A DNA stretch of 64,000 bases from the human T2T-CHM13v2.0 reference genome, Homo sapiens (GCF_009914755.1 NC_060926.1), one strand, 5' to 3'; positions 2,044 through 44,657 are shown, counted from the first letter of the stretch. Notes: a model not told the origin generated them from the sequence alone. Made by a program: numbers and translations.

Positions 2044-4914
2044 TCAAGGGGTTGGCAGGTTGCTGCCAGAGGGGGTAGGTTCCAGCCGGGGCAGCTCTAT
2101 CCACAGTGGAAGAGGATGTGGCTGGCCTGGCTGAGCCTGGACATGAGGCTGCATCAGGACCCCCTGGCCTGGCTGAAGCCCACTCTTCCAGACCCTGCCA
2201 GGGAGGGAAGGGGGTCGGTGCATGGGGGGTGCTAAAAGCAGGAGACTGTGGCCCCTGCTTGGCCTGTGGTCACTTGCCCTTGCCTGGCTGCCAGGCTAGT
2301 GGACAAACTCTCCAGCCGTGCGGGTTCCCGGCTGTTTACTTAGCACTCATCTGAGTTTATACAAAACCCTTCTGGTCCAAGCTCTGATCCTTCATTAGTA
2401 AGAGGAATGAGCTTCTGGGAAAAGTGAATGGGGAGGGGCTGTTTGCTCAGGGAGCCATCTGGGCAAATGGGGCAACAGGCCCACAGGCCTTGGCACAGAA
2501 AGTGTATGGTGCCCCCTTGGTCAGGTACATCCCATCTGATCATCTGTCACCACAGATCCCGGCATGAGCAGCAGACCAGGGGCGCGTCCCCCCTTCCAGA
2601 TGGGGAAGGGGGTCCAGGCAGCTTGTGGGAGGAGAGCCTCCAGCCCAGGGAGCTCCTGTCCCTCTGTCTCTGCACCACACACCTCTCCCGAGGGGGCAAC
2701 CCGGGTCACCTGCCCTGACAGCAGCTCTCACGGGACCTCGTTCAGCCCGTGCAAACTGTAGGGGTTATTGTGCAGTGCTGCGCCTCCTGGGGTGCAAACA
2801 GTCCCTGGCTTTCTGCCCATGGTGGGATGGGGTGCTTGCAGAAGCACCCAAGGGACCCTCCCTGGAACTGGCCCACTGCAGACTCTGCCCATCACCTCGA
2901 AGCCTCTCCTTGGAGGGTTCTGATCTGGAAACCAGGGCAATGACCTCATCCAGGGGCCTGGGCCAAGCCGAGAGGGTTTGCAAATTGATGCCCACTTAAC
3001 CACTTTATTAGCTTCTGCTGCTGGTCCTCTTAAAACATCTCCAGGGCTTGAGGATGCTATAAATTTTTGGTCAAGGATCCTCTGGCAGCCTCACTATGCC
3101 AGCATCGGTCACATGGCCCAGCCCTAGACCTCCCAGAGAGAGGCCGGGGCCTGGGGGTGCCTTTTCTGGAGGCGCAGATCATACATTCCCTTCCTTCTAG
3201 AAGCAGCGTGAGGCTGCTTTTCTGTGACTCGGAACCAGCGCACCCCATCGCTCACTGCAGGTAGGAAGCATTTCGTTGCTTCATGAAGAAGTAGACATTC
3301 TGGGCCACGAGACAGAAGGGGAAGGAAGGACTCCGAGGTTTAGAATAAGCTGGTCTCACTGCCGCAGATGACTTGGGGGGACCCACTAAGGGGGTGGGGG
3401 GCACAATAGCAGCAGCCCCTGCTGTTGGCTGAGTCCACTCAGGGCTCACCACAGCCCATCTGCCTCCCAGGCACAGGGAAACCCCCCACGGGAGGTGGGG
3501 AGACCTCAGGGGGGTCCCTCCGCCCAGGAGGAAGGCTTGCGCTGGCCAAGTGAAAACACAGGAATCTCATTTTAGTTCTAGTGGGAAGGTTCGACCGCAG
3601 CGAGGGTGGGCTGGGATGGTGGAGGTGTCTTGCCGCCCACTTCCTGCCCTGCCCACCCAGTATTCACCTCGGCCACTTGAACCTGGAGTGGGGGTGACCC
3701 GTGGGGTGGGGTGGGGGGCGTTCTCTGAGGAAACGCCGGGTGGCAGAGTTTGAAGATGGGGGAAGAATGTTCCAGGAAGAAGGAAAGTAATCTTCGAGGA
3801 GCGGGAGAGGAGGCTGCAGAGGCAGGAGGGGCTCTGGTCTCACTGAGGGTGCTGGGGCTGTCCGGAAGGAGGTGGCGCGGCTGGGACGGGGTGGCAATGG
3901 CGAAGCAGCCAGGCAGCTGCTACCTCAGGAGCATTTTGAAAGGAGAACGAGAGGTGTGGCCCACCCACAAGCGGCTCCCTCCATGCAGCCTGGGTCACCC
4001 CATGCACAGGAACTGGCCAATGAGAATGTCCTGGCCCCACCAGAGACACCAGGCTCTGATCCAACTCAGAATGCGGGACTCCCTCAGAGCGCTGCAGCCT
4101 GTCTCTTGCACCCGCAGCACGCCCTGCACTCCAGAGGCTTCCTGCGAGCCGCTTGTGTTCGGCCCCACCCAGTCCCTCTGGCCTCTCCACGCCGCGCCAT
4201 GCCGGTCCACACCCTGTCCGGCCCACTCATACCATCCACGCCCCTGCACATACTGACAGCTCAGTACCCCTTAGGGGCTGGGCTCAGAACAGACCCTCTA
4301 AAGAATGAGGCCGGAGTGGTAGGGCCAGGCAGGACCCACCTATGCCTGAGGCTGCCGCCGCTGCTGAACCCTCCGTTCCCCGCCCCCGTCTCCTGTGTCT
4401 CCTTCGTGTCTTTTTCCCTGCAAGTATGTACTTTCCCCTGCAATGCCAGCGCGTTCAGAAACTCACATTCCACTTTTAAACGCTGACACCCATGACAAGC
4501 TCTTCCTCAACGGCAAGCAGCAAGCCCAGCTTATAAAGGACAAGCGGTTCGGTCACCTTCCAGCCCATCAGGGATCACCACTGGGAAGAAGCCATGGCTC
4601 CGTGGGCCTTTGTGGGCAGGTACTGCCCTCCTCAGAGGCAGCCTGCAGTGACCGGGAGGTGACGGAGGGGTGCCAGCCTGGGGCACGTGCAGACACACAC
4701 TACCCAGCAGAAAGATTCCGGGCGGCTCGCCACACAACCCTCTGCCTGGTTTTGCAAAAAAAGGACCATCTGAAGGCCACCGGGTAGTGGGTGGAGAGGC
4801 CAGTCCAGAGTGAGGTGGCCGGCACAAAGTCCAAGGACTCTGCTGCCACCGACCCCCGTGGCCTGCAGGCTGAACGCCCGCCCAGTCCCACCCACCCCCG
4901 GCATGGCATCCCCA

Positions 4915-5568
<654 letters not shown>

Positions 5569-6984
5569 CCCACACAACTCACTTCAGGGTCTAGCGTTGC
5601 CAAGGGCAACGGGGTAGAGTGGCCTCTACCCCAAGGGGTACCCCTCAGTGAGGGAAGTCACTGGAGACAGGGAGGGGGGCTCTGGAAGCCTTCCAAGACC
5701 GGCAGACCTCCCTCCCCACTCCATGCTAGGGGTAGAGTCTCAGATCTGCCTCAGACCCACTGGGCAAAGGAAATGGATGACAGATCTACTCACAGCATCT
5801 GAGATTTGCAGCCGGCCAGGGCAGGTGGCTGCACAGAGGAAGGTGCCCTGCTTCTGGGGGGCACCACACATTTGTCACCGTGGGAGGGAGGGCTCAGCTC
5901 AGTCTCCAAGGCGGCACAAGGCCACAGCAGCCTTCCAGGAGGACAACCAGGATGCTCCCGTTCTGTGCCGTCAGGGGCTGGCTCTGTATGGCAGGGCCTG
6001 AGCCAAGGAGGAGAGAGGACCAGGGTGGGGGAGGCAAGCAGCCGTCACATGAGAGATGAGATAGAGAGGAGCCATGAGGAGGTGAATGGCTAGGCTGGGA
6101 GAATCCCAAGCCTGAGGGCTGGCTTGAATTTGCAATGTTGAATGTGGGCATCACTGGGTTATGGACCCCTCTGCGCCCCACTCTGTGACCACACAGCAGC
6201 CTTGAGTGAGCAGGCTCTTATGGAAATCCAGCATCCTCCAGGTCACATTCCACAGGAGCTGATGGGGGCCCACCCGCTTCCACACCATCCAGGGCCAGGT
6301 ATGAGACCCAGGCCTGACTGCTTAACACCTTCCCCATGTCCAGCCACAGCTGGCTTGGAAATGGACAGAGTACAGAAGCTGCCCACCCCAAGGGATCTCC
6401 CAGAGCTACCTGGACAGCCCGACTTTTTTCCACTGGCAAAGCCTGAACTTGTGAGGTATATACAGGGAGCTGTGGGCTTTATCCTGCAATTACACCAGGA
6501 CAGTCTGTCTGAGAGTGGAGCCATCACAGGGGAGCACAGATGGAAAGAGACTCCTGGATCCAGCTATGCCTGAAACCAACCGACCTCTCTCTGGTCACAC
6601 AAATCAACAAACTGCCCTGTGCTTAAGCCAGTCTGGTGGGCTGGTATCAGCGCTCAGAAGCCCACTCACCAACCAGGGACCGAGTTCCATGCTAGGTCAA
6701 CACTGGGGCAGAGAGAGGAGTCAGTTGCATGGCAAGAGTGGATGTAAGAGTTCTGCAGAGACAGAAAATCAGGGCCAAAGGTGACCGGAGAAATGTAGGC
6801 TCCCAAGAAGTCAAAGCACTCTTGGGAAATTGAGGGCTGGGACTGGGCCTCCTCCAGGTCTCAGTGGACAGGAAGACCTCAGCTAACTCCAGCATGACCC
6901 AAGTTTTTTAAGGTCTGAATAAGGGTTTGCGGTCTAGGTACTCCAGATTGCTTAATCTCCTCATCTGCTCTCTTTTTAAAATTT

Positions 6985-13176: not shown

Positions 13177-13584
13177 AGCCCAGGTGGGAGCGTGGCAGTG
13201 AGGGTGGCCCAGGACAGCGGCCCAGCCAGCCCAGGTGGGAGCGTGGCAGTGCGGGTGGCCCAGGACAGGGGCCCAGCCAGCCCAGGTGGGAGCGTGGCAG
13301 TGCGGGTGGCCCAGGACAGCGGCCCAGCCAGCCCAGGTGGGAGCGTGGCAGTGCGGGTGGCCCAGGACAGGGGCCCAGCCAGCCCAGGTGGGAGCGTGGC
13401 AGTGCGGGTGGCCCAGGACAGCGGCCCAGCCAGCCCAGGTGGGAGCGTGGCAGTGCGGGTGGCCCAGGACAGGGGCCCAGCCAGCCCAGGTGGGAGCGTG
13501 GCAGTGCGGGTGGCCCAGGACAGCGGCCCAGCCAGCCCAGGTGGGAGCGTGGCAGTGCGGGTGGCCCAGGACAGCGGCTCAGCC
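13177..13584. repeat. 51-bp minisatellite, 8 copies, BOK intron 2
   Basis: Unit agcccaggtgggagcgtggcagtgcgggtggcccaggacag(c/g)ggcccagcc, with alternating c/g variants. Confidence 0.97.
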
Positions 13585-21214: not shown

Positions 21215-21909
21215 GTAAAAGCTTTTAATGCAACAGATTACATTTTGTTTTAATTTGCCTTTCTTTGGTTATTAATGAAGGTAAACATTTTTCGTGTCTC
21301 TTATTATAATTTTCTTTTGTGAATCAGCTGTTCCAGTTCTGTGCTCATAGTTCTTTTTTGAAAGCCTCTCTTTTCTCGCTCGTGTATAAGACGTCTTTCC
21401 GTGTTGAGGCGTCGTGTCCTGCCTTTTATTCTTTCCCCTGCTGTCACCATCTTTCGTCCTCTCTTTCAAGGCTGCTCCCATCTCAGTTCAGCCTCAGCAG
21501 GTTAGGGGTCTGGGGAAGGCAGTTTCTCTGCGGGCCTCAGCTTCTTTATGTGTAAAATGTGGACGCCAGGCCTGTTGTGGGAACAGGCAGCCCAGGGGTG
21601 CCACCCGTGAGGTCACTGGCTGCTCACTCCATCTGCTGCTGCCCTCAGTTCCCTCGCCTCACCCCACGTTGTCCCTGCGGCCTCCTGCACAGACGTGGGC
21701 TGGGCAGGTGTGCAGTGGAGGCCGAGAAACCTGCCTGCCCAAGAACTACCTGACAGGCATCCTGTCAGGGAGCGGTCCCCCCTTGGGACGGTCCCTGGTC
21801 ATTAGCTGGACGGCAAGCAGGACAGCGGCTCAGAGAGGCCCAGCCCCTTCCTTAAGTGCTCCCGTGGGCGGGATTCAAGTCCTGATCTTGACCATCTCTC
21901 TCCCTGCAG

Positions 21910-22073
21910 GCATCACGTGGGGCAAGGTGGTGTCCCTGTATGCGGTGGCCGCGGGGCTGGCCGTGGACTGTGTGAGGCAGGCCCAGCCTGCCATGGTCCA
22001 CGCCCTCGTGGACTGCCTGGGGGAGTTCGTGCGCAAGACCCTGGCAACCTGGCTGCGGAGACGCGGCGGATGG
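21910..22073 (+). CDS. BOK: BOK coding exon 4 (GITWGKVVSL...WLRRRGGW; BH1 and BH2)
   Basis: Acceptor tctctctccctgcag|GC and donor TGG|GTGAGC; 164 nt; TWGK BH1 variant and WLRRRGGW BH2. Confidence 0.98.
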
Positions 22074-22915
22074 GTGAGCGCCTGAGTGCCCGTGTGGGTG
22101 GGAGAGCTGGGGTGCGAGGGTGCAGAGGTACAGGAGGGAGTGGTGGATGGGTGAGCCTCTGAGCGCCTGGGGGGTGGGAGAGCTGGGGTGCGAGGGTACA
22201 GACGTACGGGAGGGAGTGGCGGATGGGTGAGTGAGCGCCTGTGGGGGTGGGAGAGCTGGGGTGCGAGGGTGCAGAGGTACAGGAGGGAGTGGTGGATGGG
22301 TGAGCCTCTGAGCGCCTGGGGGGTGGGAGAGCTGGGGTGCGAGGGTACAGACGTACGGGAGGGAGTGGCGGATGGGTGAGTGTCTGAGCGCCTGTGGGGG
22401 TGGGAGAGCTGGGGTGCGAGGGTGCAGAGGTACAGGAGGGAGTGGTGGATGGGTGAGCCTCTGAGCGCCTGGGGGGTGGGAGAGCTGGGGTGCGAGGGTA
22501 CAGACGTACGGGAGGGAGTGGCGGATGGGTGAGTGTCTGAGCGCCTGTGGGGGTGGGAGAGCTGGGGTGCGAGGGTGCAGAGGTACAGGAGGGAGTGGTG
22601 GATGGGTGAGCCTCTGAGCGCCTGGGGGGTGGGAGAGCTGGGGTGCGAGGGTACAGACGTACGGGAGGGAGTGGCGGATGGGTGAGTGTCTGAGCGCCTG
22701 TGGGGGTGGGAGAGCTGGGGTGCGAGGGTGCAGAGGTACAGGAGGGAGTGGCGGATGGGTGAGTGTCTGAGCGCCTGTGGGGGTGGGAGAGCTGGGGTGC
22801 GAGGGTGCAGAGGTACGGGAGGGAGTGGCGGATGGGTGAGTGTCTGAGCGCCTGTGGGGGTGGGAGAGCTGGGGTGCGAGGGTGCAGAGGTACGGGAGGG
22901 AGTGGCGGATGGGTG
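22064..22915. repeat. About 76-77-bp G-rich minisatellite, 11 units (A/B dimer of 153 bp), starting at the exon-4 donor
   Basis: Unit ggatgggtgag(cctc/tgtc)tgagcgcctg..gggtgggagagctggggtgcgagggt(g/a)caga(g/c)gtac(a/g)ggagggagtgg(t/c). Confidence 0.96.
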
Positions 22916-24155
22916 GTCACCTGAGCACTCCTGGGGGAGATGGGTGAGGCAGGGGGTGGGGCAAGGGCCGAGACCTACAGGCAGGCCCTGGACTCTCCTC
23001 TGCCCAGATCCAGCACTGACTTACCCCCGATCCTACCCCTGTGCTAAGGACCCGCTGCCCCAGCCCCCGCCCTCCCGAGTGGGAAAAGCAAGGCCCCGAG
23101 GGGTGGGTGTCAGAGCCAAACCCTTCCTCTGTCTCCACGCCCCCAACTTCCTGCCCTGCTCCGGCCAGACCGCAGTTGCCGCTGGGCCCTGGGTGTGGAG
23201 GGTGGCTCCCCTGCCGAGAGTCTAGCCTTCTTTCCTGTACAGCGGGTGTTGGCCTGGTGTGTAAATCAGCGGCCAGGGGTGACAGCGCTCAGACCCCTCT
23301 GCTGGGGCCTTAGCTTTAGCATCTCGAGAGATTGAGGTCACGTGGTCTGCGGGGGCTGTGGTCTCCTCTGAAGGCTGAATTGGGGGTGCAGAGGGCAATG
23401 TCCCAAGATGTCGCACATGGCTACAGGTGTCCCTCAGCACAGAAACCCCAAGACTTCCGTCCCCTCCTGTCTTCCTCCTGTGGAGTCTGGCATGGGGCTG
23501 GGCACTGTGTGCCCAGTGGGCGACGACACTTTGAGCAACGCCAAGGCCACAGGTCCAGGCTGCAGGGAAAAGCCTTCATGTATTAGCAGGAAGTGAAGGG
23601 AATAAGAGAATTGGACGTTCATTCACTTCCCCAGAAGGAACTTCAGAGTCCAGGGAGTCCGTGGGCTTCCGGAAACGCAGTCCCTGCTGTTGTTCCAGGC
23701 AGAGTCTGAATGAAGCTGGGTTTGCCCCTTCCTGGTAGCCCAGGCTCCAAGGCCCCACAGGAGGATGACGGCGGCATACCTGTAGCCCCTGGGGGGCAGC
23801 AGGCAGGTGGCCGAGGGGAGCTGGCACCCTGGTCTGGATGTCTGGAGCCCCAGCGAGGGCCATGAAGGCCTCTCTCCTGCTCGGCAGGGGCCCTCCGGCC
23901 GGCCTGCCTGGCTGCCATCTGTCCCCACCTCCCGTGCCTCCTGGCCCTTCACACTGTCTGAATGTGCACGGCATCGGGTCTGGTCTTGTGTTGGAGCCTT
24001 CAGTCCAGGCCACAGACCTCCTTCCCGAACAGTCTCCTGCATTCCCTTCATGCAATTTTGCTGATATTCTGGTGCACGGTGCTGGGGGGCCTGGCGGTGC
24101 TGGGGGCCTGGCGGTGCTGGCTCTGCTTTCTAACGGTCTCCCTCTTCCCTCCCAG

Positions 24156-24281
24156 ACTGATGTCCTCAAGTGTGTGGTCAGCACAGACCCTGGCCTCCGC
24201 TCCCACTGGCTGGTGGCTGCACTCTGCAGCTTCGGCCGCTTCCTGAAGGCTGCCTTCTTCGTGCTGCTGCCAGAGAGATGA
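24156..24281 (+). CDS. BOK: BOK coding exon 5 (TDVLKCVV...AAFFVLLPER*; C-terminal membrane anchor)
   Basis: Branch point ttctaAc (24133), pyrimidine tract and cccag| acceptor; TGA at 24279-24281. Exon sum 220+129+164+126 = 639 nt = 212 aa plus stop. Confidence 0.98.
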   Translation, partial: TDVLKCVVSTDPGLRSHWLVAALCSFGRFLKAAFFVLLPER

Positions 24282-24595
24282 GCTGCCCACCTGGCAGTGG
24301 CCGCAGCCTGGCCCTCTGGGCCCAACGCAGGAGGCCCTCAGCACCCGAACACATCTTCCTCCTCCCCACCCGAGCCTGGAGCACTCTAACCCTCGGAGAC
24401 CCCCTAAGCCCCGTTCCTCCGCAGACCCAGGCCCTCCGGAAGGGGTGAGTGGGGAGGGGCTTTCCTGAGCCTGGAGCTGGGCTTTGGGGCAGCCTGCGAC
24501 CCTCCCCGCTTGTGTCCCTTCTCCTGTGATCTCTGTGTTTTCCCTTTTCTTTCTGGGGCCAGGAAGTCAGGGTCAACTCCCAGGCCTCAGATGCA

Positions 24596-25270
24596 GGGGC
24601 CCAGAACACCTGCTCTCACCTGAGCCCCAGGTGAAGGGGCCCGGGAACACCTGCTCTCACCTGAGCCCCAGGTGAAGGGGCCCGGGAACACCTGCTCTCA
24701 CCTGAACCCCAGGTGAAGGGGCCCGGAACACCTGCTCTCACCTGAGCCCCAGGTGAAGGGGCCCGGAACACCTGCTCTCACCTGAGCCCCAGGTGAAGGG
24801 GCCCGGGAACACCTGCTCTCACCTGAGCCCCAGGTGAAGGGGCCCGGGAACACCTGCTCTCACCTGAACCCCAGGTGAAGGGGCCCAGAACACCTGCTCT
24901 CACCTGAGCCCCAGGTGAAGGGGCCCGGAACACCTGCTCTCACCTGAGCCCCAGGTGAAGGGGCCCGGGAACACCTGCTCTCACCTGAGCCCCTGGTGAA
25001 GGGGCCCGGAACACTTGCTCTCACCTGAGCCCCAGGTGAAGGGGCCCGGAACACCTGCTCTCACCTGAGCCCCAGGTGAAGGGGCCCGGAACACCTGCTC
25101 TCACCTGAGCCCCCGGTGAAGGGGCCCGGAACACTTGCTCTCACCTGAGCCCCAGGTGAAGGGGCCCGGAACACCTCCTCTCACCTGAGCCCCAGGTGAA
25201 GGGGCCCGGAACACCTCCTGTCACCTGAGCCCCAGGTGAAGGGGCCCGGGAACACCTCTCACCTGAACCC
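24596..25270. repeat. 40/41-bp minisatellite, 16 full units plus a partial, inside the BOK 3'UTR
   Basis: Unit cacctgctctcacctgagccccaggtgaaggggcccg(g)gaa starting at 24607, 24648, 24689 and so on to 25212. Confidence 0.97.
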
Positions 25271-25997
25271 GGGGGTCCCATCCCAGGAAGAAGGGCCATC
25301 TCAGGACATGAGTCCTCAGGGGCCCTGCACATTCAATCTGAAGGTGACCCTGGCCTGGCTGAAGCTGGAAGAGCTGTGGGGACTCAGCCTGTAAACAGAG
25401 CGTAAGGTTCACATGCTGGTTGCTTAATCCGTTTCTGGAGGAAGAGTATGACACCCACTTGTGATGGGGTCCTTGTGCGGTGGGGACCGGGGCCGGCGGG
25501 CTCCAGGCCAGCACACCTAACCCATGGATGTGGAACCTACGGCCGAGAAGGAATGTTGCATGAGTCGGATCCCAGTCCATTGTCAGTGGAGGGTGAGGGT
25601 GACCCCATCTGCTATTTTTGTGCTCATCCTCATACAACCATTTGGGGATGTGCCTATTAGGGCTCCGTAAGAACTCAGATGCCTGGGAAGCCCAGCCCCT
25701 CAGGTGCCCCCACACACAGCCTTCCCTTGACGCCTACATTTCTAGGCACATGTGAGGCATCTTTCCTGGAGCCCCGAGCCAGCCCTGTCCCTCCCCAGTG
25801 CAGCATGGCACTCAGGAGATACAGGCTGGACATGGGGCAGTCGTTCTGGGGAGGCCTGGCCTAGCAGCCACCCACCTGAGCCCTCCCGGCCAGGCTTCGT
25901 GCTGGGGTGGGCCATGTGCCAGGACAGGAGGGTCCCGGCGGAAAGCCAGCCCCGGACTCATCGTGACATTGAGATCCCACTGGAGGGTAGGGGTGGT

Positions 25998-26003
25998 AAT
26001 AAA
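25998..26003 (+). terminator. BOK: BOK polyadenylation signal AATAAA
   Basis: First AATAAA I found after the stop codon, followed by U/GU-rich sequence (ttgtcatttt, tgtgtgtgtgtt). Confidence 0.88.
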
Positions 26004-26144
26004 CTTCTCCAAACGATCGTTGTCATTTTAGACAGAATGTCACTGTGTGTGTGTTAAATAGCTTCTACCTATACACAACATGGTAAGAGGTGCGGAGGGT
26101 TTGCTTGAAAATAATTGAGGGTGGGGAGTGGCGAGAGGGTGGGG

Positions 26145-28661: not shown

Positions 28662-28885
28662 GGGAACAAACGCCAGGGTGCCCTGCGGCCCGGCTCTCCT
28701 CGGTTCCCCTGATCCATCCAGGGAACAAACGCCAGGGTGCCCTGCGGCCCGGCTCTCCTCGGTTCCCCTGATCCGCCCAGAGAACAAACGCCAGGGTGCC
28801 CTGCGGCCCGGCTCTCCTCAGTTCCCCTGATCCATCCAGGGAACAAATGCCAGGTGCCCTGAGGCCTGGCTCTCCTCAGTCCTCC
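28662..28885. repeat. 59-bp minisatellite, about 3.8 copies
   Basis: Unit gggaacaaacgccagggtgccctgcggcccggctctcctcggttcccctgatccatcca at 28662, 28721, 28780 and 28839. Confidence 0.93.
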
Positions 28886-41812: not shown

Positions 41813-44657
41813 CTGATGATAATGATGGGCACTAGGACACTCAGAGCTGCTCGGCTGACGATGATGGGCACTAGGACACTCAGAGCTGCTCGGCTGACGA
41901 TGACGGGCACTAGGACACGCAGAGCTGCTCGGCTGACGATGATGGGCACTAGGACACGCAGAGCTGCTCGGCTGACGATGATGGGCACTAGGACACTCAG
42001 AGCTGCTCGGCTGATGATAATGGGCACTAGGACACTCAGCTGCCCGGCTGATGATAATGGGCACTAGGACACACAGAGCTGCTCGGCTGATGATAATGGG
42101 CACTAGGACACTCAGAGCTGCTCGGCTGATGATAATGGGCACTAGGACACTCAGAGCTGCCCGGCTGATGATGAGGGGCACTAGGACACTCAGAGCTGCC
42201 CGGCTGATGATGATGGGCACTAGGACACTCAGAACTGCCCGGCTGATGATGAGGGGCACTAGGACACTCAGAGCTGCTCGGCTGATGATAATGGGCACTA
42301 GGACACGCAGAGCTGCTCGGCTGATGATAATGGGCACTAGGACACTCAGAGCTGCTCGGCTGATGATAATGGGCACTAGGACACACAGAGCTGCTCGGCT
42401 GATGATGGGCACTAGGACACTCAGAACTGCCCGGCTGATGATGAGGGGCACTAGGACACTCAGAGCTGCTCGGCTGATGATGATGGGCACTAGGACACGC
42501 AGAGCTGCCCGGCTGACGATGATGGGCACTAGGACACTCAGAGCTGCTCGGCTGATGATGATGGGCACTAGGACACACAGAACTGCTTGGCTGATGATCA
42601 TGGGCACTAGGACACTCAGAACTGCCCGGCTGATGATGAGGGGCACTAGGACACTCAGAGCTGCTCGGCTGATGATAATGGGCACTAGGACACGCAGAGC
42701 TGCCCGGCTGACGATAATGGGCACTAGGACACACAGAACTGCCCGGCTGACGATGATGGGCACTAGGACACACAGAACTGCCCGGCTGACGATGATGGGC
42801 ACTAGGACACACAGAGCTGCTCGGCTGACGATGATGGGCACTAGGACACTCAGAGCTGCTTGGCTGATGATGATGGGCACTAGGACACGCAGAGCTGCTC
42901 GGCTGATGATGATGGGCACTAGGACACTCAGAGCTGCTCGGCTGATGATCATGGGCACTAGGACACACAGAACTGCCCGGCTGATGATGAGGGGCACTAG
43001 GACACACAGAACTGCCCGGCTGATGATGAGGGGCACTAGGACACTCAGAAGTGCCCGGCTGATGATGAGGGGCACTAGGACACTCAGAAGTGCCCGGCTG
43101 ATGATGAGGGGCACTAGGACACTCAGAGCTGCCCGGGTGATGATAATGGGCACTAGGACACGCAGAGCTGCTCGGCTGATGATAATGGGCACTAGGACAC
43201 TCAGAGCTGCTCGGCTGATGATGATGGGCACTAGGACACACAGAGCTGCTCGGCTGATGATGATGGGCACTAGGACACTCAGAGCTGCCCGGCTGATGAT
43301 GATGGGCACTAGGACACTCAGAGCTGCCCGGCTGATGATGATGGGCACTAGGACACTCAGAGCTGCTCGGCTGATGATGATGGGCACTAGGACACTCAGA
43401 GCTGCTCGGCTGATGATGATGGGCACTAGGACACACAGAGCTGCTCGGCTGATGATGAGGGGCACTAGGACACACAGAACTGCCCGGCTGATGATGAGGG
43501 GCACTAGGACACTCAGAACTGCCCGGCTGATGATGAGGGGCACTAGGACACTCAGAGCTGCTCGGCTGACGATGATGGGCACTAGGACACACAGAGCTGC
43601 TCGGCTGACGATGATGGGCACTAGGACACACAGAGCTGCTCGGCTGACGATGATGGGCACTAGGACACTCAGAGCTGCTCGGCTGACGATGATGGGCACT
43701 AGGACACACAGAACTGCCCGGCTGACGATGATGGGCACTAGGACACACAGAACTGCCCGGCTGATGATGATGGGCACTAGGACACTCAGAGCTGCTCGGC
43801 TGATGATGATGGGCACTAGGACACTCAGAGCTGCTCGGCTGACGATGATGGGCACTCGGACACACAGAACTGCCCGGCTGACGATGATGGGCACTAGGAC
43901 ACTCAGAGCTGCTCGGCTGATGATGATGGGCACTAGGACACTCAGAGCTGCTCGGCTGATGATGATGGGCACTAGGACACACAGAGCTGCCCGGCTGACG
44001 ATGATGGGCACTAGGACACTCAGAGCTGCTCGGCTGATGATGATGGGCAGTAGGACACTCAGAGCTGCTCAGCTGATGATGATGGGCACTAGGACACACA
44101 GAACTGCTTGGCTGATGATCATGGGCACTAGGACACTCAGAACTGCCCGGCTGATGATGAGGGGCACTAGGACACTCAGAGCTGCCCGGCTGATGATAAT
44201 GGGCACTAGGACACGCAGAGCTGCTCGGCTGATGATAATGGGCACTAGGACACACAGAACTGCCCGGCTGACGATGATGGGCACTAGGACACTCAGAGCT
44301 GCTCGGCTGATGATAATGGGCACTAGGACACACAGAACTGCCCGGCTGACGATGATGGGCACTAGGACACTCAGAGCTGCTCGGCTGACAATAATGGGCA
44401 CTAGGACACACAGAACTGCCCGGCTGACGATGATGGGCACTAGGACACTCAGAGCTGCTCGGCTGATGATGATGGGCACTAGGACAGACAGAACTGCCAG
44501 GCTGACGATGATGGGCACTAGGACACTCAGAACTGCCCGGCTGACGATGATGGGCACTAGGACACTCAGAGCTGCTCGGCTGATGATGATGGGCACTAGG
44601 ACACTCAGAACTGCTCGGCTGATGATCATGGGCACTAGGACACTCAGAGCTGCTCGG
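41813..44657. repeat. 39-bp minisatellite, about 73 copies (2.85 kb), THAP4 last intron
   Basis: Unit gctgatgatgatgggcactaggacactcagagctgctcg with recurring variant positions. Confidence 0.98.

What the first reader, a model, noticed from the sequence alone, without database searches (positions are those of the whole stretch)
24596..25325. BOK 3'UTR minisatellite is an array of 18 miR-296-5p seed sites: a possible copy-number rheostat on an apoptosis effector
Seen: each of the 16 units contains GGGGCCC, with one more copy at 24596-24602 and one at 25319-25325. That makes 18 sites about 40 nt apart, two of them followed by A (8mer type), all between the stop codon and the PAS. Established: miR-296-5p begins AGGGCCCC, so its nt 2-8 complement is GGGGCCC, and closely spaced sites can act cooperatively. 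I recall miR-296-5p being reported as a BOK regulator but cannot verify that here. Inference: if the array is length-polymorphic, allele length would set miRNA site dosage and BOK level, or make BOK mRNA a miR-296 sponge.
Basis: partly seen in the sequence, partly recalled or inferred. Interest (0 to 1): 0.8.

Follow-up and report, generated by a model that had tools for sequence, protein, structure and literature searches.

The report
BOK 3'UTR minisatellite of miR-296-5p sites
A 40-base tandem repeat in the tail of the human BOK messenger RNA does carry a microRNA-296-5p docking site in every unit, but this many-site targeting of BOK was published in 2017, and only the idea that repeat length tunes BOK levels remains new and untested.

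Summary
A 40/41-nt minisatellite (16.7 units, window 24584-25257) lies in the BOK 3'UTR. GGGGCCC occurs 18 times on the + strand between 24596 and 25325, and two copies are followed by A. I confirmed the seed match from the genome's own MIR296 gene. A nineteenth canonical site, a 7mer-A1 at 24318, was missed.

The core interpretation is already in print. Onyeagucha et al. 2017 showed that miR-296-5p represses BOK and reported "at least sixteen" putative 3'UTR sites. Their seed-mutant reporters tested exactly the first and last sites of this set.

What remains new is the VNTR and rheostat idea. CHM13 carries one unit more than the RefSeq mRNA, so length does vary, though only two alleles were seen. 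One unit changes site number by about 1 in 18. The sites are predicted to be structurally occluded. The searchable GTEx eVNTR tables of Lu et al. 2023 list other nearby VNTRs for BOK, but not this one. In HEK293T, mutating two U-rich elements restores most expression. The enrichment reflects amplification of one unit, in a window holding at least ten minisatellites. I found no sign of selection on the motif.

Verdict: real and mostly known. The rheostat is a plausible but probably weak effect.

The parts
24584..25257 (+). GC-rich minisatellite in the BOK 3'UTR. The unit is 40/41 nt in 16.7 copies, with a 162-nt (4-unit) higher-order period in its 5' half. GC content is 0.67.
   Evidence: TRF. 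Unit alignment and unit types. Composition. Only self matches in the CHM13 genome.
24596..24603 (+). First miR-296-5p site, an 8mer (GGGGCCC followed by A), in the partial first unit. It corresponds to the published reporter 'seed 1' (UTR nt 299-322).
   Evidence: Duplex dG is -22.0 kcal/mol. Mapping to Onyeagucha 2017 coordinates is, taking UTR nt 1 as window 24282.
24636..25247 (+). Sixteen further array sites, one per unit, at 40/41-nt spacing. Fifteen are 7mer-m8 and one is an 8mer at 24880-24887.
   Evidence: Duplex dG is about -24 kcal/mol for 14 of the 16 and about -20 for two variant units.
25319..25325 (+). Last 7mer-m8 site, in unique sequence 62 nt beyond the array. It corresponds to the published reporter 'seed 2' (UTR nt 980-1005 of the reference mRNA, which equals CHM13 position minus 40).
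   Evidence: It has the best duplex, dG -26.2 kcal/mol. Coordinates.
24318..24324 (+).
   Evidence: Site census.
25036..25075 (+). One repeat unit present in CHM13 but absent from RefSeq NM_032515.5. It is annotated as a 40-nt 'intron' and is in fact an allele-length difference.
   Evidence: Hub annotation. The gap is exactly one unit and is GT..AG-flanked only because every unit holds CAG|GT. It can be slid over 59 start positions with an identical product. A review states that BOK has five exons, whereas the hub table lists six here.
24279..24281 (+). BOK stop codon (TGA). The 3'UTR starts at 24282.
   Evidence: and the hub annotation.
25998..26003 (+). The only AATAAA in the 3'UTR, about 30 nt before the annotated transcript end (26030). 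No upstream alternative PAS hexamer would exclude the array.
   Evidence: 11 hexamer variants scanned.

Best explanation
This is a GC-rich subtelomeric minisatellite that expanded inside the BOK 3'UTR from a 40-nt unit that happened to contain a canonical miR-296-5p seed match. The mature BOK mRNA therefore carries 19 canonical sites in CHM13: 2 8mers, 16 7mer-m8 and 1 7mer-A1. It behaves as a multi-site miR-296-5p response element, and AGO-miR-296-5p binding lowers BOK mRNA and protein in cells that express enough of the miRNA. This is the interaction published in 2017. Spacing of 40-41 nt is within the range where neighbouring sites can bind cooperatively. The array varies in unit number between haplotypes. 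Because each unit adds only one moderate site to about 18, and the sites are partly buried in inter-unit helices, the expected effect of common length variation on BOK level is small.

Shown here: anatomy, seed match, position in the mRNA, and a one-unit allele difference. Shown in print: repression by mimic, derepression by inhibitor, and seed-mutant reporters for the first and last sites. Inferred: function of the internal array sites, cooperativity, and neutral origin.
For: Anatomy.

Seed match, from the genome's own MIR296 (Rfam RF00733) and published primers. Among 7-mers of pre-miR-296, only the one at nt 2-8 of the 5p strand is complementary to a high-copy array 7-mer.

Predicted duplexes are about -24 kcal/mol, with some 3' pairing to the CCAGGUG of each unit.

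Onyeagucha 2017 (passages read):
- The mimic lowers BOK mRNA and protein, and the anti-miR raises it.
- Reporters carrying UTR nt 299-322 and 980-1005 lose the response when the seed is mutated.
- These two fragments map to window sites 24596 and 25319.

Reviews repeat the link.

Cooperatively acting sites lie 8 to about 60 nt apart, and closely spaced sites sequester miRNA cooperatively (Denzler 2016, passages).

Neutral-origin context:
- At least 10 distinct minisatellite arrays lie in the 64-kb window.
- About 8 variable positions per unit lie outside the motif, which chance alone gives at P of about 0.18 (my arithmetic).
- The window-wide motif count is not above shuffles.
Against: - Only the two outermost sites were tested in print. 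They were tested as 24-26-nt fragments with a transfected mimic, which the methods give as 75 nM of a precursor. The internal array sites are untested.
- Local folding (W=80, L=40) gives a median probability of 5.3e-4 that the 8-nt site is unpaired. The whole UTR gives 8.2e-3 and the UTR outside the array gives 1.6e-2. The GGGGCC of one unit pairs with the GGCCCC of a neighbour in the MFE fold.
- PITA-like ddG is only -4 to -13.5 kcal/mol.
- In HEK293T, mutating URE1 and URE2 in the full human 3'UTR restored expression to near the CDS-only level (Fernandez-Marrero 2018, passages). The array is therefore not a strong constitutive repressor there.
- I found no AGO-CLIP or CLASH support. The stored part of the Helwak 2013 CLASH table has 0 miR-296-5p rows and one BOK row, miR-331-3p in the CDS.
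Confidence: 0.65

Rival explanations
1. Neutral passenger. The minisatellite is one of many in this subtelomeric region, and the seed matches are a by-product of its GC-rich unit. At physiological miR-296-5p levels the occluded sites do nothing measurable, and the published effects reflect over-expression.
For: - At least 10 minisatellites lie in 64 kb.
- Forty different 7-mers are repeated 9 or more times, so some seed match is expected. This rests on my recalled estimate of a few hundred conserved and about 2,000 total human seeds among 16,384 7-mers.
- There is no excess conservation of the motif.
- Predicted accessibility is low.
- URE mutation alone restores expression in HEK293T.
- The array is not listed as a BOK eVNTR.
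Against: - The anti-miR raised endogenous BOK in two breast cancer lines.
- Seed-mutant reporters lost the response.
- A second group reports the same target in pancreatic cancer. I saw this only as cited in a review.
Confidence: 0.3
2. Copy-number rheostat. Population variation in unit number changes miR-296-5p site dosage enough to set BOK level, so the array acts as an eVNTR through a post-transcriptional mechanism.
For: - Unit number differs between CHM13 and the RefSeq mRNA by one unit (hub annotation).
- The higher-order 162-nt period indicates block duplications.
- Site spacing allows cooperativity.
- A precedent is cited in print: the effect of the miR-491 mimic grew with the number of DAT VNTR copies (Jia 2016, as described).
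- SHISA7 VNTR with miR-3681-5p is a second precedent.
Against: - Only two alleles were seen, one unit apart, which is about a 6% change in site number.
- If sites act independently, n versus n+1 units changes expression by the effect of one moderate 7mer-m8 site (inference).
- Lu 2023 GTEx tables list BOK once among length eVNTRs. The lead is GRCh38 chr2:241589947-241591266, slope -0.235, whole blood, with 17 VNTRs tested. BOK appears twice among eMotifs, both at other loci.
- Nothing in those tables starts with 241572 or 241573, where the 3'UTR array maps. File 1 was not searchable, file 4 was cut, and I could not confirm that the array was among the 17 tested.
- BOK is absent from four other supplement sets.
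Confidence: 0.1
3. miR-296-5p sponge. BOK mRNA, with 19 sites, titrates miR-296-5p away from its other targets such as MCL1.
For: - There are many closely spaced sites per molecule.
- Closely spaced sites sequester miRNA cooperatively.
- MCL1 is reported as another target with two sites.
Against: In hepatocytes, derepression needed about 0.7-1.1 x 10^5 added sites per cell, and cooperativity lowered this only by about 50%. At 19 sites per mRNA that is roughly 3,700-5,800 BOK mRNAs per cell by my arithmetic. I judge that far above ordinary mRNA levels (inference). The GC-rich 7-mer is likely common in GC-rich UTRs (inference).
Confidence: 0.03
4. The array acts at another level. One option is a DNA E-box cluster bound by ZEB, SNAI or bHLH factors. 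Another is an RNA array of U1/5' splice-site-like CAG|GUGAAG motifs that influences 3'-end processing or cryptic splicing within the UTR.
For: - There are 28 CACCTG and 14 CAGGTG in 674 bp.
- CAGGTGAAG occurs 14 times, and each unit also ends in a pyrimidine-rich ...CCCCAG|G.
Against: - No RefSeq functional element is listed over 24584-25257 among the six intervals the hub table shows. It also says 'and 3 more' enhancers that I cannot see.
- These motifs are repeated for the same trivial reason as the seed match.
- No expression or binding data are available here.
Confidence: 0.05

Closest known systems
miR-296-5p repression of BOK (Onyeagucha et al., Oncotarget 2017, PMC5689661)
   Same: It concerns the same gene, the same miRNA and the same sites. 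The paper reports 'at least sixteen putative' sites in the BOK 3'UTR. It validates by seed mutation the fragments that map to window 24596 and 25319.
   Different: In the passages I read, the word 'repeat' occurs 0 times in the main text. The paper does not describe the sites as a tandem repeat or VNTR, does not test internal units, and does not consider allele length.
SLC6A3 (DAT) 3'UTR VNTR and miR-491 (Jia et al. 2016, seen only as described in PMC7398795)
   Same: It is a 3'UTR VNTR in which repression by a miRNA mimic increased with the number of repeat copies. This is the same 'copy number sets site dosage' logic. The 40-bp unit length of the DAT VNTR is recalled, not from a call.
   Different: It involves a different gene and miRNA. 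I did not read the primary paper. The BOK array has more units and GC-rich, structured units.
SHISA7 3'UTR VNTR with miR-3681-5p sites (Lee et al., Mol Cells 2020, PMC7398795)
   Same: It is a tandem repeat of 9.5 units in a 3'UTR, with a conserved miRNA seed match in 6 units. The stated hypothesis is that the number of sites affects expression.
   Different: The units are longer (about 70-75 nt). The authors report up-regulation with both mimic and inhibitor, so the effect is not classical repression.
Multi-site miRNA sponges such as ciRS-7/CDR1as (recalled, no call)
   Same: It has many closely spaced seed sites for one miRNA on one RNA.
   Different: ciRS-7 is an abundant, stable circular RNA with far more sites. 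BOK is an ordinary mRNA, and published thresholds make sponging improbable.

Membership tests
Canonical miRNA target site (miR-296-5p) | Contiguous Watson-Crick match to miRNA nt 2-8 (7mer-m8), with or without A opposite nt 1 | tested here: met
   The reverse complement of the seed, from genomic MIR296 (L009:1495-1515, minus strand), is GGGGCCC. The census gives 2 8mers, 16 7mer-m8 and 1 7mer-A1 in the 3'UTR, and 0 sites in the four coding exon segments.
Canonical miRNA target site (miR-296-5p) | Located in the 3'UTR of the mature mRNA, more than 15 nt past the stop codon | tested here: met
   The stop codon is at 24279-24281 and the first site is at 24318. The single PAS is at 25998. The hub annotation places the array in the terminal exon.
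Canonical miRNA target site (miR-296-5p) | Repression that depends on the seed match | not testable with these tools
   This is published for the first and last sites only, as short fragments. The internal units are untested.
Canonical miRNA target site (miR-296-5p) | AGO occupancy in vivo | tested here: inconclusive
   The stored part of the Helwak CLASH supplement has 0 miR-296-5p rows, and the file was cut. No other CLIP data were reachable.
Canonical miRNA target site (miR-296-5p) | Conservation of the site in orthologous UTRs | not testable with these tools
   No primate or rodent genomes are held. The only data point is that the human 3'UTR is stated to be three times longer than the mouse one.
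Minisatellite / VNTR | Head-to-tail array of units of about 10-100 bp | tested here: met
   TRF gives period 40, 16.7 copies, 95% matches and score 1196.
Minisatellite / VNTR | Unit number varies between individuals | tested here: met
   CHM13 has exactly one unit more than RefSeq NM_032515.5 (hub annotation gap 25036-25075). The published site coordinates are offset by 40 nt. Only two alleles were seen, and both lines trace back to the same reference mRNA.
eVNTR (repeat length associated with expression) | Significant association of array length with BOK expression | tested here: inconclusive
   The array is not listed in the searchable Lu 2023 tables, while other VNTRs are listed for BOK. 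BOK is absent from four other supplement sets. Whether this array was genotyped in any of them is unknown.
ceRNA / miRNA sponge | Sites contributed are a sizeable fraction of the miRNA's effective target pool | not testable with these tools
   No expression or transcriptome-wide site counts are available. The published thresholds argue against it.

The most novel reading that the evidence does not exclude
The BOK 3'UTR minisatellite is a functionally relevant, length-polymorphic miR-296-5p response element. Alleles spanning a wide range of unit numbers would give graded, cooperative repression of a BCL-2-family effector by an imprinted miRNA. Inherited repeat length would then set BOK dosage in tissues that express miR-296-5p. 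It would be a post-transcriptional eVNTR that short-read eQTL studies have missed.
Probability: 0.1. Interest if true: 0.55.

Novelty: already known. Interest (0 to 1): 0.25.

Why it matters
BOK is a BAX/BAK-like apoptosis effector whose protein and mRNA levels often disagree, so knowing what controls its mRNA is useful. The multi-site miR-296-5p control is already published.

This check adds four points:
- The published sites are a variable tandem repeat.
- Only the two outermost sites have been tested.
- The internal sites are predicted to be structurally hidden.
- Published eVNTR tables point to other repeats near BOK.

If repeat length did tune BOK, it would be a clean human example of a post-transcriptional VNTR effect. 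There are precedents (DAT with miR-491, SHISA7 with miR-3681-5p), and the per-unit effect is expected to be small.

Tried and rejected
**The 40-nt gap as a real intron (rejected).** I considered the annotated gap at 25036-25075 as a genuine intron and rejected it for four reasons.
- It is exactly one repeat unit.
- Its GT..AG ends exist in every unit.
- The same product arises from 59 alternative placements.
- At 40 nt it is much shorter than the four real BOK introns, which are 461-7650 nt, and a review gives five exons.

**Selection on the seed motif (not supported).** I looked for motif invariance across units. GGGGCCC is intact in 17 of 17 array units, but about 8 variable positions per 40-nt unit miss it by chance at P of about 0.18 (my arithmetic).

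**A dispersed repeat family (not found).** The search of the CHM13 genome returned only self matches, and that tool scores best candidates only.

**CLASH support (uninformative).**

**eVNTR support.** BOK is absent from the supplements of Bakhtiari 2021, Lu 2021, the Cell Genomics 2024 study and the 2018 census. Lu 2023 lists other loci. The Garg et al. AJHG paper is not held, and the supplements of its bioRxiv version are closed.

**Literature for BOK plus VNTR.** The search gave 29 papers, 25 listed, and none was about the BOK gene's repeat. A four-term search for VNTR plus miRNA binding sites returned 0 papers, probably because of the term form '3 utr'. A looser search found the SHISA7 paper.

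**Other limits.**
- Primate and rodent orthologues could not be examined with the collections held.
- I could not enumerate which other human miRNA seeds match the other 39 high-copy 7-mers, because no miRNA library is held.

Full report
**1.

Reading window 24100-26100 and running TRF shows a 40-nt unit repeated 16.7 times at 24584-25257. It has 95% matches and a 162-nt higher-order period. GGGGCCC occurs on the + strand at 18 places from 24596 to 25319. Successive starts are 40 or 41 nt apart for 16 intervals, and the last site is 78 nt further on, in unique sequence.

Two sites are followed by A, at 24596 and 24880. The BOK stop codon is at 24279-24281. The only PAS-type hexamer in the 3'UTR, among the 11 variants scanned, is AATAAA at 25998. 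All sites therefore lie in the 3'UTR, and no upstream PAS would remove them.

**2. The seed match, checked from the genome rather than from memory**

- A paper's primer table gives the first 15 nt of hsa-miR-296-5p (forward primer) and its last 6 nt (RT primer end).
- The 15-mer occurs three times in the CHM13 genome.
- The chr20 copy lies in a hairpin that Rfam calls mir-296 (RF00733, 106 bits against a gathering score of 66), next to mir-298.
- Taking the 21-nt 5p strand by coordinates from that locus, the reverse complement of nt 2-8 is GGGGCCC.

A census of site types gives 2 8mers, 16 7mer-m8 and one 7mer-A1 in the 3'UTR. The four coding exon segments hold none. Among all 7-mers of pre-miR-296, only the one at nt 2-8 of the 5p strand is complementary to a high-copy 7-mer of the array.

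**3. The enrichment is not evidence of selection**

- Window-wide, the motif is not enriched. There are 35 matches against 28.2 (sd 5.6) in shuffles, and 12 of 100 shuffles reach 35.
- The cluster is one motif amplified with its unit. Forty different 7-mers occur 9 or more times in the array.
- With a few hundred conserved miRNA seeds, and some 2,000 human seeds in all, among 16,384 7-mers, a match of one of 40 repeated 7-mers to some seed is unremarkable. These seed numbers are recalled, not from a call.
- GGGGCCC is intact in 17 of 17 array units. The units differ at only about 8 positions. By my arithmetic those would miss a given 7-nt stretch by chance at P of about 0.18.
- The window holds at least 10 distinct minisatellite arrays, as expected near a chromosome end.
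- The array has no other copy in the genome. One search gave self matches only, and that tool scores best candidates only.

**4. The central interpretation is already published**

Onyeagucha et al. 2017 (PMC5689661; passages read) report the following.
- miR-296-5p was predicted by four algorithms to bind multiple sites in the BOK 3'UTR.
- The mimic lowers BOK mRNA and protein, and the anti-miR raises it.
- Reporters carrying 'seed 1' (UTR nt 299-322) and 'seed 2' (nt 980-1005) lose the response when the seed is mutated.

Taking UTR nt 1 as window 24282, seed 1 is the first site of the present set (24596-24603). Seed 2 is the last site (25319-25325) once 40 nt are subtracted.

The word 'repeat' does not occur in that paper's main text. 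The tandem-repeat nature, the internal units and allele length were therefore not addressed there. Two reviews repeat the link. The second cites a pancreatic-cancer study, Okazaki 2020, which I did not read.

**5. The array is length-variable**

The hub annotation splits the last RefSeq exon at 25035/25076. The gap is exactly one unit. It begins GT and ends AG only because every unit contains CAG|GT. The same mRNA results from 59 alternative placements of the deletion.

The four real BOK introns are 461-7650 nt, and a review gives BOK five exons. The gap is therefore an allele difference: CHM13 has one unit more than the reference mRNA. The 40-nt offset of the published 'seed 2' coordinates agrees, though it traces to the same reference sequence. 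Only two alleles have been seen.

**6. How well should the sites work?**

- Predicted miRNA-site duplexes are about -24 kcal/mol for 14 of the 16 further array units, about -20 for two variant units, -22.0 for the first site and -26.2 for the last.
- Spacing of 40-41 nt is within the 8 to about 60 nt range in which sites act cooperatively (Denzler 2016, passages).
- Against this, the array is 67% GC and folds on itself. The GGGGCC of one unit pairs with the GGCCCC of a neighbour in the MFE structure of a 171-nt piece (z = -1.98 against shuffles).
- Local folding (W=80, L=40) gives a median probability of 5.3e-4 that the 8-nt site is open. The UTR overall gives 8.2e-3 and the UTR outside the array gives 1.6e-2.
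- Opening a 25-nt footprint costs 11-17 kcal/mol, leaving a ddG of -4 to -13.5 kcal/mol.
- In HEK293T, mutating two U-rich elements in the full human 3'UTR restored expression to near the CDS-only level (Fernandez-Marrero 2018, passages). The array is therefore not a strong constitutive repressor there.
- The stored part of the HEK293 CLASH table holds no miR-296-5p rows, so it is uninformative.

**7. The rheostat and sponge ideas**

*Rheostat.* One unit changes site number by about 1 in 18. With independent sites, that is the effect of a single moderate 7mer-m8 site (inference).

In the GTEx tables of Lu et al. 2023, BOK appears once among length eVNTRs. The lead is GRCh38 chr2:241589947-241591266, in whole blood, with slope -0.235, p 1.3e-9 and num_var 17. 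BOK appears twice among eMotifs, at 241576761-241576976 and 241545681-241546425.

By my offset from the BOK 3' end, the first two of these are window 41817-44657 (39 nt x 73) and 28662-28877 (59 nt x 3.7).

No entry starts with 241572 or 241573, where the 3'UTR array maps. Three caveats apply:
- File 1 was not searchable.
- File 4 was cut.
- I cannot show that the array was among the 17 tested.

TR_locus numbers 43494-43496 fall between the listed neighbours, which leaves room for it (inference). BOK is absent from four other supplement sets.

*Sponge.* Derepression in hepatocytes needed about 0.7-1.1 x 10^5 added sites per cell, and cooperativity helped only about two-fold. At 19 sites per mRNA that is thousands of BOK mRNAs per cell (my arithmetic).

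*Precedents.* The concept has precedents: the DAT VNTR with miR-491 (as described) and the SHISA7 VNTR with miR-3681-5p.

**8. Verdict**

The feature is real and correctly described. Its main meaning, a many-site miR-296-5p response element in BOK, is already known. This check adds five points:
- The published sites are a VNTR.
- CHM13 and the reference differ by one unit.
- There is a nineteenth site.
- Only the two outermost sites have been tested.
- The internal sites are predicted to be occluded.

The rheostat remains an untested hypothesis with a low prior for a sizeable effect. The sponge idea is unlikely.

Noticed in passing
window 41817-44657: A 39-nt x 73-copy minisatellite (2.8 kb in CHM13) lies here. 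By my coordinate offset it is the published lead length-eVNTR for BOK in whole blood (GRCh38 chr2:241589947-241591266, slope -0.235; Lu 2023). That GRCh38 interval is only about 1.3 kb, so the array looks strongly length-polymorphic.
   Followed up: partly
window 28662-28877: A 59-nt x 3.7 tandem repeat lies 2.6 kb downstream of BOK. By offset, and by its motif read on the opposite strand, it matches the published eMotif VNTR for BOK in whole blood (GRCh38 chr2:241576761-241576976).
   Followed up: partly
window 24584-25257: Every unit carries a 5' splice-site-like CAG|GTGAAG (14 exact copies) and a pyrimidine-rich ...CCCCAG|G. Unit-to-unit cryptic splicing, or aligner artefacts like the annotated 40-nt 'intron', are therefore possible. 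The array also holds 42 E-box hexamers (28 CACCTG, 14 CAGGTG).
   Followed up: partly
window 22065-22915: A 77-nt x 11.2 (153-nt higher-order) G-rich minisatellite starts within the last bases of BOK coding exon 21910-22073 and runs into the intron. It overlaps the RefSeq enhancer 21841-22462.
   Followed up: no
window 13177-13584: A 51-nt x 8 minisatellite lies in a BOK intron. GGGGCCC recurs in it every 102 nt (13268, 13370, 13472), which shows that this motif is common in the local GC-rich repeats.
   Followed up: no
   Followed up: yes
L009:1450-1528 and 2063-2147 (minus strand; G000 contig C20 near 60.60 Mb): The MIR296 and MIR298 hairpins lie about 530 nt apart (Rfam 106 and 107 bits). 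One 7-mer of pre-miR-298, at position 74, is complementary to a high-copy array 7-mer. I did not establish whether it falls in a mature seed.
   Followed up: partly
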